Assembly (NCBI GenBank): GCA_051294375.1
Contig: CM119266.1
Span: 26,571,387-26,635,386 of the forward strand
Source: Paraspadella gotoi
Taxonomy: Eukaryota > Animalia > Chaetognatha
Length of the DNA: 64,000 bases
Direction: 5' to 3'
The stretch's first letter is position 1. Each line of letters opens with the position of its first letter. This document shows, in pieces, positions 34,511 to 38,100 of this stretch. A program made the position numbers and the translations under genes. Under the pieces are notes generated by a model. The model saw nothing but the letters and a program-made list of their open reading frames with translations. It was not told where the DNA came from and did not search any database.

Positions 34511-35104
34511 TCAATACATCGTGACGTATCTTTTGACCTTCCCTCTCAACGATTCTCGCCGTTTATTCAGCGTTATACGAATTGGGGGCGATCTTTTAGT
34601 AGACATGTGTTCGATAAAGTTACGGAGTTGTCGCTGTTCGGCGCTCGTGAGATCGTCGGGGATTGACTGAGGCGAAGTTTTTCTGAGATCAGATGTAGTT
34701 GAGCTCAATATCGGTGAAGCCGGAATCGGTCGCGTTATTTCCTTCTGTGGAGAGTTCGATGGAGTCGTATTCTCTACCGTCAAAGATAGGGCAGGATAAT
34801 GTGCATGCGAAGTGATCGCTTCGGCGTCGACGGAGATCGAAGTAGGTATAAATGGCGTGTAACTTTTACTAGGTTTCTTAATCCCGCATGAGGTGAGCTT
34901 TCCACGCGGGGTAGAATCAGTAGTGAGGGAGCTTGATTGGACATCTTTTTGCAAAGGTCTTCTCGACGTTGCGTTCATCTTCTGCGTTTGTGACCCTGTA
35001 AAAGTAGAGTTTGCGGAGGATTTGTGGTTAGAATGATCCATGGCCGTCGGCGCCCCCGGTGGGGCTTTGCTCCGTGCCCGTGATTTTCCGGGGGGCGCTC
35101 GCTG
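34511..35104 (-). CDS. 197-codon in-frame extension downstream of the MATCAP stop codon (candidate readthrough region)
   Basis: CAG at 35104 through TAT at 34514 has no stop; it includes the 176-aa ORF from ATG 35041 (63 nt after the stop, same frame); base composition falls to AT-rich right after TGA 34513-34511. Confidence 0.6.
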   Translation of the reverse strand, partial: QRAPPGKSRARSKAPPGAPTAMDHSNHKSSANSTFTGSQTQKMNATSRRPLQKDVQSSSLTTDSTPRGKLTSCGIKKPSKSYTPFIPTSISVDAEAITSHAHYPALSLTVENTTPSNSPQKEITRPIPASPILSSTTSDLRKTSPQSIPDDLTSAEQRQLRNFIEHMSTKRSPPIRITLNKRRESLRGKVKRYVTMY

Positions 35105-38100
35105 TCAGCTGGACGCGGCGGTGGCAGCGGTTTTCCGTCCTCTCGTCCTCTTGGTTTCCGCGTGGCGTTCTATCATCATCTGTGCCTGGGCGATTTGAGC
35201 CTGTGCGTGGAAAATTCCGAAATGACAAATTGATCGATAATTTGTACTATTAAATCACGCTTCGATTATACATACTATCGACGCCAATTAAATTTGGTTT
35301 AAATACTAAAAAATACTAAATACTAAAAACAAATTTAAGGGGTTAAATAAAAAAAATATATTAATAATAATTCTGGGAACTTCAGATGAAGGATTTTCCC
35401 GCGTCTTTACCTTGAACGTAACGTTTGTTTAAAGAGTGTGGAGTCAAAGTCAATTTATGACTCATAAAAATAACATTCTTGTGATCATTTATTCATATTC
35501 ATGCACAACATCCAAAAAGGAAAATAGGTAAAAAAAAAAAATTTTAAAAGTTCCGTCAACGAGTGATATCAAGTAGCTTATACTTTCGCATAAATTTTTA
35601 GATTTAAACCATTAAACTCAATTTTTTTTTAAAAATCTGTTTGGTAGGGATTTGTGTTCAAATATTAAAATTGTAAAGTAACCGTTTAATATGAACCTCA
35701 ATTATAATAATGATAAATCTAAAACTACTAACTCAAACTCTAAAACTCAAACCCACTAAATTGTTGGTTTATTTTGGATTAACACCAGTAACATGTATGA
35801 AATGCCAGGAATGCTGTTCGATCGGACGGAAATCATTGAGCTTTCGTGAAAAAAATATTCAGGATTGAGAAAAGAAAAGGCGAGTGACTAATGATTTTTG
35901 CCAGTGGTTTTGTATTTCGTACATAATAAAATTTCCCTCTTAAGCTTGGGGCGATTCGTTTCCTCCTCTATGGGTGGTCTGTTGGGCTTAATCTGTAAAA
36001 CTGTATTCAGTATTTTTACGAAAGGTTTTTGGTTTGATAGAAAAAAAAATTACAATGGCATCAGATTCTTTTTATTGTTAAAGCCGGCTTCCCTAATTTT
36101 ATTTGTTCTTTACTCGAACCTGCCTTTTTCAATCACGCAACAAAGGCTGAAGTTTTTTTTAACGCGCGGATTATTTGCTCTTAGCACGTACTTTTTAGAC
36201 TTTTTCTTAATAAGGGATTTTCTAGATAAAAAAAGGAACGAAAGGATTTTTTATATCCTGATCTCAAGGAACACGATTCATCGTAGTGGAATTTTTTTCA
36301 CAACGCATAAAAAATATTGGCCCGGTTATATCGGCTAAACTCTCCTTTACTAGACCTGGGCTTGCGCCTGCGCGGCAGCCGCCACCTGCGCCTTCTTGAT
36401 CCCATCAGAGTCAGGAAGACGCTCCAACTCATCGTCGGAGAGTCCGTTCGATAAGACGATGTAGTCCAGGCGTCTTCGGTACAGTTCCTGCGGAGGGTGA
36501 ATCGCACATAATAATTTTTACATTGGTTGTACCAATTTCATAAGAGCTTCAATGGGCTCGCAATTTTCTTATGTCCTCTCTCTCTCTCTCTCTCTCTTTC
36601 TCTCTCTTTCTCTCTCTTTCTCTCCCTCCCTCCTGGTTGACCCTCAACCCGCCCCCGATCAAAATATCTCGGAAATTTTCGTCGGAGTGATATTCCAAGA
36701 TTTTTTTTTCATCTCCCACGCAAGTTTTTTTTTCTCCCTTCGCGACTGGTCCTCCGTTGCTCTACGTTCGGAAAAATTTAGAGAAAAAACTAAATTTTAA
36801 TCTTCTCTCGCTTCAACGAAATAGTACAACTTTTGAAGCAAATGAGCCTGAAATTTGATTTGGGAAAACTGCGCAGTTCATCCGCGTCGGCAAAACATTC
36901 CCGCCCCTCGCACTCGTTTTAACCTCGTCCTGCATGAAGCTGGGCACTTGGGCGTTCTCGCAATCCGCCAGCAAAAGCAATCGGTCTACGTCCTCGAAGG
37001 CCACTTTTCCCAGTTGCACGAGGAAGTGAAAGTCGATTGAGCGCCGGTGCTTGAGGAGCTGAAGCGCTCCTTCGAGGTAGACTTGATCTTTGCAGAAGGC
37101 GCCTGAAAATAAGGTATAATTATCGTTTATAAATATACCACTATAGTGACGTAATATCACTACAAGGCAACTGACGGAAAAATCTCCCAGACCCACTGGG
37201 CGCACTAAGTGTGGGGGCAATTCTCACCGTCAGAGGGACATGGCGACCGCTTTCTCCTCTCGGTCACTTTAATTTTAAACATACTTTGCCAGGAAATATG
37301 CATGCATAGATAAATTCTGGATGTGATTGAATGAGATTCCGCTGCAACTGCTAGTACTATACAGTAGGGTGGAGTGATGAAAAGATTTAGCGATTGAACA
37401 TTATTTTTTTGTTTTTTATGGATATGCAATTAATATATTTTAAATATTTTTAGCATAACATAAATTAAATTATTTATGTAGTAATAATATCCTTATAAAA
37501 TTATTATAAAATACATTATATAATACTTTAATATTTAAACCGCAAAAAACGTTTTAACATATATATGTTTCAACTGCACAGAATAAAAAAAAAATTTTTT
37601 CTTGTTTTAAATGCTGAAGATAACATAACTTTGAATAACATGTCTCATATTTTTGATTCAACTTTTTATGAAGAATCTGAATCTTTATTTAAAGTTTAAA
37701 AAAATATTTTTAAAATTTACTATTGTTTCTGAAACAATATGAACAAAATATTTTTTGTTTGATCATTCAAATAATCGTTTTGTTCTTGAGAGCTCCACTC
37801 CACTATGCAGCGTTCTAAATTTAGAACAGCTTTCTCCCGCCTTCAACACCACGTCAGCGACATTATAAATGCAAATCATTCTTCGATCATAACAAGGGGA
37901 AAACCTTCCGTTGTCTTCCTCGTTTTAATCATTCATGGGTGGGAATTAAAAAGTTGAAACAATCTGTTCCAGCGGATAACGACCTCAATAATTTAGCATA
38001 TATATCATGCCTCAGACTCCATTTGCCCTCCTCAATTTATTTTAAATGCGTACGTTCGACAACGGTTACGAGCGTAGTTTAGTGGCGTCCATTCTAGTTT

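What the first reader, a model, noticed from the sequence alone, without database searches (positions are those of the whole stretch)
34511..35200. Candidate programmed stop-codon readthrough giving MATCAP a 197-aa C-terminal extension
Seen: the last MATCAP exon (from 35200, AQIAQAQ...AATAASS) stops at TGA 35107-35105 in a UGA-C context. Six nt later a GC-rich hairpin begins (GCGCCCCCCGG 35098-35088 pairs with CCGGGGGCGC 35059-35050, with inner GGGC/GCCC), and the same frame stays open for 197 codons (S/T/P-rich, basic end) until the DNA becomes AT-rich. Known: UGA-C is the leakiest stop context, and 3' stem-loops stimulate readthrough in alphaviruses, Drosophila headcase and the SEPN1 redefinition element. 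Inference: two tubulin-detyrosinase isoforms are produced by readthrough. I know of no such report for this family. UGA is otherwise a normal stop here (Smad ends SSVS-TGA).
Basis: partly seen in the sequence, partly recalled or inferred. Interest (0 to 1): 0.85.

Follow-up and report, generated by a model that had tools for sequence, protein, structure and literature searches.

The report
Leaky stop extends tubulin-clipping enzyme
In this animal, the spliced message for the tubulin-clipping enzyme MATCAP carries a weak-type UGA stop followed by a predicted RNA hairpin and 197 more protein-like codons, so some ribosomes likely read on and add a long, predicted floppy and positively charged tail, although the longer protein has not been seen.

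Summary
Observation confirmed. The TGA (35107-35105, minus strand) ends an intact MATCAP frame. It is unchanged in a spliced RNA-type contig that joins exons 6-11 and runs through the whole downstream frame without a joint. The next 197 codons are stop-free (8 of 20000 dinucleotide shuffles) and 3-periodic (1 of 5000), and end where the DNA turns AT-rich. After the stop come CAGCGA (yeast CARNBA readthrough motif, 7 of 2018 codon positions) and a predicted 10-bp stem at +10 to +58, the geometry of the Drosophila drifter element. The stem alone is only modestly unusual (about 1-9% by several controls). No relative of the extension was found, so conservation, the defining test, is untested, and host codon usage does not single out this frame. 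Best reading: programmed readthrough giving a minor long isoform with a basic disordered tail (0.57). Rivals: recent nonsense mutation (0.17); a separate ORF reached by splicing, trans-splicing or its own ATG (0.16); untranslated sequence (0.10). No report found for MATCAP. The scan noted similar candidates in other genomes, not this gene. New member of a known kind.

The parts
44328..44492 (-). MATCAP exon 3 (start of the catalytic domain). Further exons: 43977-44062, 42586-42700; an upstream charged exon about 44602-45001
   Evidence: GT-AG model gives an open frame, 51-60% identical to 8 of 8 homologues; exons 3-5 were not individually shown in the RNA tables
40680..41296 (-). Exons 6 (41224-41296) and 7 (40680-40864); the HEVGTH zinc motif spans their junction
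   Evidence: joint in the X1 contig; exon 7 matches MATCAP1 structures 7z5g and 7z6s at E about 1e-20; motif
36356..39097 (-). Exons 8 (38977-39097), 9 (36924-37102) and 10 (36356-36487); homologues end inside exon 10
   Evidence: joints; Pfam MATCAP PF08014 on exon 9, E 3.7e-4, below the curated cut-off for this 59-aa piece
35108..35200 (-). Last exon, 31 codons of A/Q-rich then basic tail before the first stop; not present in the 8 homologues
   Evidence: helix 2-29 in a low-confidence single-sequence model
35105..35107 (-). First stop, UGA (candidate readthrough codon)
   Evidence: genome and RNA-type contig agree
35099..35104 (-). +4 to +9 context CAGCGA, matching CARNBA; also the 6-nt spacer before the stem
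   Evidence: 7 of 2018 codon positions match; motif from PMC4132726
35050..35098 (-). Predicted stem-loop +10 to +58: 10 Watson-Crick pairs with one bulged C, plus an inner 4-bp helix
34514..35104 (-). 197-codon in-frame extension: S/T/P-rich, net charge +18, predicted disordered, with two short C-terminal helices
35039..35041 (-). First in-frame ATG in a strong Kozak-like context (GGCC ATG G); rival start
34978..35010 (-). Acceptor-like site (AG ends at 34996, phase 1) followed 17 nt later by an in-frame ATG at 34978; rival splice or trans-splice entry
   Evidence: acceptor score 3.6, top 2% of 286 internal coding AGs; no joint in X1
34511..34513 (-). Second stop, UGA followed by CUA
34310..34510 (-). 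AT-rich 3' UTR with AATAAA at 34315-34310; the contig ends at 34329

Best explanation
The MATCAP mRNA carries a UGA followed by CAGCGA and a predicted hairpin, which likely lets a fraction of ribosomes decode the stop with a near-cognate tRNA and translate 197 more codons, so the gene likely makes a short enzyme and a minor long form with a predicted disordered, basic tail. Shown: an intact enzyme frame; the UGA and the whole extension lie on one spliced contig; the extension is open and 3-periodic beyond chance; the context and the stem sequence are present. Inferred: the weak +4 to +9 context and a stem at the mRNA entry channel (+10) slow termination, as for Drosophila drifter, alphaviruses and SEPN1. 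The residue inserted would be Trp, Cys or Arg (recalled), not Sec. Further inferred: human MATCAP needs a disordered region for microtubule binding, condensation and full activity, so a second basic disordered tail would raise microtubule affinity or condensation of the long form and tune detyrosination.
For: The TGA and the extension lie on one spliced contig, with no internal joint and no variant at the stop. Open frame: 8 of 20000 and 44 of 200000 shuffles. Periodicity chi2 26.0, reached by 1 of 5000 stop-free controls. No tandem array explains it. Only 16 of 225 possible single-base nonsense changes in this frame would give TGA-C, and CARNBA occurs at 7 of 2018 codon positions. The 60 nt after the stop are the most stable of 623 codon-register windows of this mRNA; a helix of 10 bp or more starting at +7 to +16 occurs at 38 of 1878 positions and in 15-17 of 1500 synonymous randomisations. 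The +10 to +58 stem matches the span of the drifter element, where moving the stem 3-9 nt further away lowers readthrough (PMC13170385). SEPN1 has a 6-nt spacer; alphavirus stems have 10-12 bp and a 1-nt bulge in the 5' arm (PMC3159437). GC at fourfold sites is 58 of 109 in the extension against 0.72 in the first ORF (Fisher p 0.0014): an open frame with relaxed codon bias fits long-term low-level translation better than a freshly broken tail. The in-frame AG right after the stop scores below all 22 true acceptors. No SECIS was found.
Against: No homologue of the extension in four searches, so nothing shows conservation of the stop, the stem or the protein. The host codon model does not favour the reading frame: score -0.17 against +0.17 for a stop-broken frame, and 3315 of 5000 controls score as well. 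The hairpin is weak by other controls: dinucleotide z -1.38; MFE reached by 69-264 of 3000 synonymous randomisations at 60 nt, by 14 of 169 windows of GC 0.70 or more in two other genes, and nearly matched (-26.6 against -27.0) by a region 170 nt upstream; the 623 windows overlap. CARNBA was picked after seeing the sequence, it is a yeast motif, and CARYYA, CUAG and CGG/CUA are not matched. Low fourfold GC also occurs in EF1A (0.49) and the PSKH1 tail (0.61). A strong-context ATG and a good acceptor lie inside the ORF, and the stretch between the stop and them would be open by chance 31-93% of the time. Abundant readthrough was not found outside Pancrustacea in the species tested (PMC5100048). 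All RNA evidence is one contig from one run; X1 may be the same stock as the genome.
Confidence: 0.57

Rival explanations
1. Recent nonsense mutation: the last exon once encoded a 229-aa lineage-specific tail, and a point change created the UGA. The dispensable remainder has not yet decayed; the leaky context and hairpin are coincidence.
For: Explains the open, periodic frame and the composition change at the second stop without recoding. The catalytic domain is untouched, and 8 of 8 homologues lack any tail, so the loss would be cheap. A stop in the last exon would escape junction-dependent decay (recalled). Jungreis et al. treat this as a main false signal.
Against: Needs TGA-C (16 of 225 possible nonsense changes) plus a stem at +10 (2-7% of positions) by chance. 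Fourfold GC of the extension differs from the rest of the gene (p 0.0014). The RNA contig also has the TGA.
Confidence: 0.17
2. The ORF is real but is reached without readthrough. Routes: a spliced leader or another exon joined at the acceptor-like site 34996/34995 (ATG 34978, 155 aa); initiation at ATG 35041 (176 codons); or a rare in-frame splice from exon 10 to the AG just after the stop (35101), which skips the UGA.
For: Acceptor 34995 scores 3.6, at or above 73% of true acceptors, with an in-frame ATG 17 nt later; ATG 35041 has G at -3 and G at +4. An unreviewed note places this genome among arrow worms, where about half the genes are trans-spliced and 18% lie in operons (PMC12460157). 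Contigs drop short leader tips and rare isoforms. The AG at 35102 is phase 0, like the exon-10 donor.
Against: One AG of that score among the 31 in the extension is expected about 40% of the time (from the 1.7% rate). It is phase 1, out of frame with exon 10. There is no AATAAA-like hexamer (0-1 mismatch) between the stop and it, and that DNA is GC-rich, unlike a spacer between genes. Site 35101 scores -4.9, below 22 of 22 true acceptors. No such joint or second contig appears in X1. Frame agreement with MATCAP would be coincidence.
Confidence: 0.16
3. An ordinary long 3' UTR whose open frame is not usefully translated: a chance ORF in moderately GC-rich, weakly ACG-periodic DNA, or only basal UGA-C leak.
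For: GC-rich UTRs exist here (Smad UTR 0.53). There is no homologue, no Pfam match and no host-like codon usage. The case was picked out of a genome-wide scan.
Against: 44 of 200000 periodicity-preserving shuffles are stop-free. Periodicity is 26.0 against 9.4 for the Smad UTR. The frame begins at the stop and ends at the AT-rich boundary.
Confidence: 0.1

Closest known systems
Drosophila drifter/vvl readthrough cassette (PMC13170385; abstract and sections 18, 19, 22 read)
   Same: Leaky stop plus a +4 to +9 context plus a stem-loop spanning about +10 to +58, followed by a long in-frame extension in a cellular animal mRNA
   Different: dfr uses UAG, is conserved in 29 Drosophila species and was tested by reporter; here UGA, one species, untested, and an enzyme rather than a transcription factor
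Alphavirus nsP3/nsP4, Drosophila kelch and headcase 3' stems, SEPN1 redefinition element (PMC3159437; passages read)
   Same: UGA, a short spacer (6 nt as in SEPN1), and a 10-bp stem with a one-base bulge in the 5' arm (as in EEEV/WEEV)
   Different: Compact loop (28 nt) rather than about 100-270 nt; no SECIS found, so not selenocysteine; context CAG, not CUA or CGG
Yeast CARNBA / plant-virus CARYYA context (PMC4132726; passages read)
   Same: CAGCGA fits CARNBA
   Different: Those motifs are described after UAG; CARYYA is missed by one base
MATCAP1/2 (KIAA0895L/KIAA0895, TMCP1/2; PF08014; PDB 7z5g, 7z6s)
   Same: Catalytic domain 51-60% identical to 8 homologues, with HEVGTH matching their HE(I/L)GTH; a charged, low-complexity N-terminal exon
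   Different: All 8 homologues end within 1-4 residues of the aligned domain end; this gene adds about 52 residues before the UGA and 197 after it

Membership tests
MATCAP tubulin carboxypeptidases | Full catalytic domain homologous to KIAA0895/L | tested here: met
   329-333 aligned residues to 6 full-length homologues, E 1e-128 or better; PDB hits
MATCAP tubulin carboxypeptidases | HExxxH zinc-binding motif intact | tested here: met
   HEVGTH across a junction seen in RNA
MATCAP tubulin carboxypeptidases | Removes the C-terminal Tyr (or Glu) of tubulin | not testable with these tools
   needs an enzyme assay
Programmed stop-codon readthrough genes | Stop present in the mature mRNA, with the downstream in-frame ORF on the same transcript | tested here: met
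   one spliced contig, no variant and no joint; a contig is not a single molecule
Programmed stop-codon readthrough genes | Coding signature downstream of the stop | tested here: inconclusive
   openness and periodicity are significant; codon usage is not
Programmed stop-codon readthrough genes | Leaky context and/or 3' stimulatory structure | tested here: met
   UGA-C, CARNBA and a predicted stem at +10 to +58; stem significance modest
Programmed stop-codon readthrough genes | Stop and extension conserved across species (excludes recent nonsense) | tested here: inconclusive
   no relative retrieved; runs X2 and X3 do not cover the last exon at 80% likeness
Programmed stop-codon readthrough genes | Alternative splicing, downstream ATG and editing excluded | tested here: inconclusive
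   none seen in one run's contigs, which drop rare forms; a good acceptor and two in-frame ATGs exist
Programmed stop-codon readthrough genes | Extended protein or ribosomes past the stop observed | not testable with these tools
   no Ribo-seq or proteomics
Selenoprotein genes | SECIS element in the 3' UTR | tested here: not met
   no SECIS family among the 3 weak Rfam matches; a simple pattern scan of 35104-34200 found none

The most novel reading that the evidence does not exclude
A non-arthropod animal, likely an arrow worm, has independently evolved a drifter/SEPN1-style recoding cassette on a tubulin-code enzyme. Regulated readthrough would switch MATCAP between a bare enzyme and a form with a second basic disordered tail that binds microtubules or condenses, so tubulin detyrosination would be set at translation termination.
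Probability: 0.4. Interest if true: 0.65.

Novelty: new member of a known kind. Interest (0 to 1): 0.45.

Why it matters
If true, it would be a first case of recoding on a tubulin detyrosinase (none found in three literature searches). It would also be a long, structure-stimulated readthrough outside insects and crustaceans, where abundant readthrough has been described. Human MATCAP activity depends on a disordered region (PMC13522474), so a readthrough-controlled second one would be a natural, testable dial on the tubulin code. The 60-nt cassette can be assayed directly in a reporter. The mechanism itself is well known, and the tail seems lineage-specific, which limits the reach.

Tried and rejected
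Sequencing runs: no RNA holder is listed on record. X1 is RNA by the tool's guess, and its contig skips GT-AG introns. X2 has one 161-nt contig over exons 8-9 (20 differences in about 150 nt); X3 has nothing on the exons; neither covers the last exon. No whole genome is held, so paralogues and a genome-wide readthrough test were not possible. Extension searches: 83 candidates and none significant among 108-345-aa proteins; 2 hits among 1.84 billion representatives, both repetitive proteins with 10-11 stretches, rejected as compositional; 167 and 595 pattern matches in metagenome contigs, none confirmed; the Atlas gave no answer; a 'longer' search with the extension was not run. Exon-9 search: 8 homologues among 44 candidates, none close (at most 67%). 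The EF1A exon search, run to name the taxon, gave unnamed marine sequences at 80-92% and no named close relative, so 'arrow worm' stays unverified. The fragment alignment A1 was misaligned and not used. The exon-2 row was in the wrong frame and was dropped (corrected GC3 0.67). Rejected: assembly error and majority A-to-I editing; selenocysteine; a general reassignment of UGA (PSKH1 and Smad end at TGA); tandem-repeat origin; an internal intron removing the stop (the only GT before it is phase 2 in a poor context, and no joint was seen). No SxIP or RVxF motif in the extension. Literature: KIAA0895 + readthrough gave 1 unrelated paper, MATCAP + readthrough 0, TMCP1 + stop codon 2 unrelated by title, chaetognath + readthrough 4 unrelated by title. 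Supplementary candidate lists of the fly and mosquito papers were not opened; an insect orthologue could be listed there.

Full report
Gene and observation. The minus strand carries an animal MATCAP gene. A GT-AG model from exon 3 (44492) to the TGA gives 383 open codons. It aligns over 329-333 residues at 51-60% identity to six full-length homologues and keeps the HEVGTH motif. Exon 7 matches the MATCAP1 structures 7z5g and 7z6s. All 8 homologues retrieved end within 1-4 residues of the aligned domain end, inside exon 10; this gene continues for about 52 residues to TGA 35107-35105 and then for 197 open codons to TGA 34513-34511.

Transcript. One contig of run X1 (2087 nt; RNA by the tool's guess) joins exons 6, 7, 8, 9, 10 and 11 across five CT..AC gaps and covers 35199-34329 in one piece. 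It has no other letter at the stop, one difference at 34408, and no second contig or joint in the last exon. AATAAA lies at 34315. So the stop is not an assembly error, is not mostly edited, and the extension is part of the dominant spliced message in that run. Limits: one contig from one run; contigs drop rare forms and short leader tips and do not prove single molecules; X1 may be the same stock as the genome.

Is the extension coding-like? It is stop-free in 8 of 20000 dinucleotide shuffles and in 44 of 200000 shuffles that keep composition per codon position. The other five frames hold 4-20 stops. Base periodicity (chi2 26.0) is reached by 1 of 5000 stop-free controls, against 9.4 for the GC-rich Smad 3' UTR. 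No tandem array underlies it. GC falls from 0.498 to 0.275 after the second stop. Against this, a codon model from four genes of the window does not favour the frame (-0.17; 3315 of 5000 controls as good), although it picked the right frame in 4 of 4 held-out disordered segments, weakly for the PSKH1 tail. Fourfold-site GC is 58 of 109, lower than the first ORF (p 0.0014) and than disordered parts of Smad and PSKH1 (177 of 244, p 0.0006), but similar to EF1A (106 of 217). The product is S/T/P-rich with net charge +18. A single-sequence model is low-confidence (mean pLDDT 53.6), with helices only at 2-29, 186-201 and 218-228, consistent with disorder but not proof of it.

Recoding signals. UGA-C is the context most enriched among fly readthrough genes (32% of them; PMC4615788, section 8 read). 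The hexamer CAGCGA fits the yeast CARNBA motif (PMC4132726, passages), found at 7 of 2018 codon positions here; it does not fit CARYYA, CUAG or CGG/CUA. The stem at +10 to +58 has pair probabilities of about 0.9 for its outer pairs, in a 251-nt context and with only the sequence 3' of the stop. The 60 nt after the stop are the most stable of 623 overlapping windows of this mRNA. As stable are 25 of 1387 windows in three other genes and 14 of 169 windows of GC 0.70 or more. A 10-bp helix so placed occurs at 38 of 1878 codon positions (27 of 398 GC-rich ones) and in 15-17 of 1500 synonymous randomisations, while overall folding energy is matched by 69-264 of 3000 and by 18 of 200 dinucleotide shuffles. 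The hairpin is thus real as a prediction and modestly unusual. Its placement equals that of the Drosophila drifter element (+10 to +58), whose deletion or shift lowers readthrough (PMC13170385, sections read), and resembles the SEPN1 and alphavirus elements (PMC3159437, passages).

Rivals. (1) Recent nonsense: explains the open frame, but only 16 of 225 possible single-base nonsense changes in this frame give TGA-C, and a stem must coincide. Taking about 32% UGA-C and about 10% structures among true readthrough genes against 7% and 2-7% by chance gives, by my rough inference, odds of about 6-20 to 1 for readthrough before priors. (2) Entry by splicing or initiation: the AG right after the stop is in frame with the exon-10 donor but scores below 22 of 22 true acceptors. 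The acceptor at 34995 scores well but is phase 1, and one such site among 31 AGs is expected about 40% of the time. It is followed by an in-frame ATG, and if the animal is an arrow worm (unreviewed note e1-10588733; my EF1A search, neither confirmed nor contradicted it) trans-splicing is common (PMC12460157, passages). No poly(A)-like hexamer precedes it. (3) Selenocysteine: no SECIS. (4) Code change: PSKH1 and Smad end at ordinary TGA-A, and EF1A at TAA-A, with 49, 32 and 7 open codons, so 0 of 3 other genes look like readthrough cases.

What could not be done. No relative of the extension or of the last exon was found, and no genome is held. Conservation of the stop, the criterion used to exclude recent nonsense in PMC5100048 (passages), is therefore untested. 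This is the main reason confidence stays at 0.57.

Likely working. Most ribosomes would stop at the UGA and release a MATCAP with a short tail; a fraction would insert an amino acid and add 197 residues. Human MATCAP lacking its disordered region loses much of its microtubule binding and activity (PMC13522474, abstract and discussion read). A basic disordered C-terminal tail would therefore plausibly change the long form's microtubule affinity or condensation. This step is inference only.

Novelty and verdict. No paper joining MATCAP, KIAA0895, TMCP1 or chaetognaths with readthrough of this kind was found (listings only; supplements not opened). The scan holds similar single-gene candidates from other genomes and no look-alike of this stretch. 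It is a good single-species candidate for a known mechanism in a new gene family and likely a new lineage: new member of a known kind, interest 0.45.

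Noticed in passing
window 34513-34463 (-): The second stop is also UGA-C, in the UGA-CUA context of type II readthrough, followed by 15 open AT-rich codons. CGG/CUA follows 19 of 2018 codon positions. Could be a double readthrough or chance.
   Followed up: no
window 36355-36347 (-): Exon 10 read on into intron 10 ends after one codon at TAG TAA; intron retention would give a third, shorter C-terminus. 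Three low-depth X1 contigs lie in this intron (35269-36088), but none bridges it.
   Followed up: partly
window 35098-35044 (-): Both hairpin arms lie in repeats of the peptide APPG (RAPPGK, KAPPGA), encoded with C-run and G-run codons that make the pairing.
   Followed up: partly
window 33600-34118: A contig at depth 259 begins at 34118, about 200 nt from the MATCAP 3' end. It is likely the 3' end of a plus-strand neighbour (a frame ending ...SPTAPVVC-TGA), tail to tail with MATCAP; the gene was not identified.
   Followed up: partly
window 11322-13245 (+): EF1A gene with 8 short introns and an insertion near the WTSGYGDG region; its closest relatives (88-92% on one exon) are unnamed marine sequences of 472-475 aa.
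   Followed up: partly
window 19487-22911 (+): PSKH1-like kinase (name recalled, not searched) with an A/P-rich C-terminal tail; ends TGA-A with 49 open codons after it.
   Followed up: partly
window 49291-53250 (+): Smad2/3-type gene (type recalled from the SSVS end) in only three coding exons; GC-rich 3' UTR with GAC repeats.
   Followed up: partly
window 57061-57786 (-): A 241-codon stop-free frame at 60% GC that was not assigned to any gene.
   Followed up: no
window 45316-45596 and 45736-45930 (-): Two further open frames upstream of MATCAP exon 2 that may be its first exons; the start codon was not determined.
   Followed up: no
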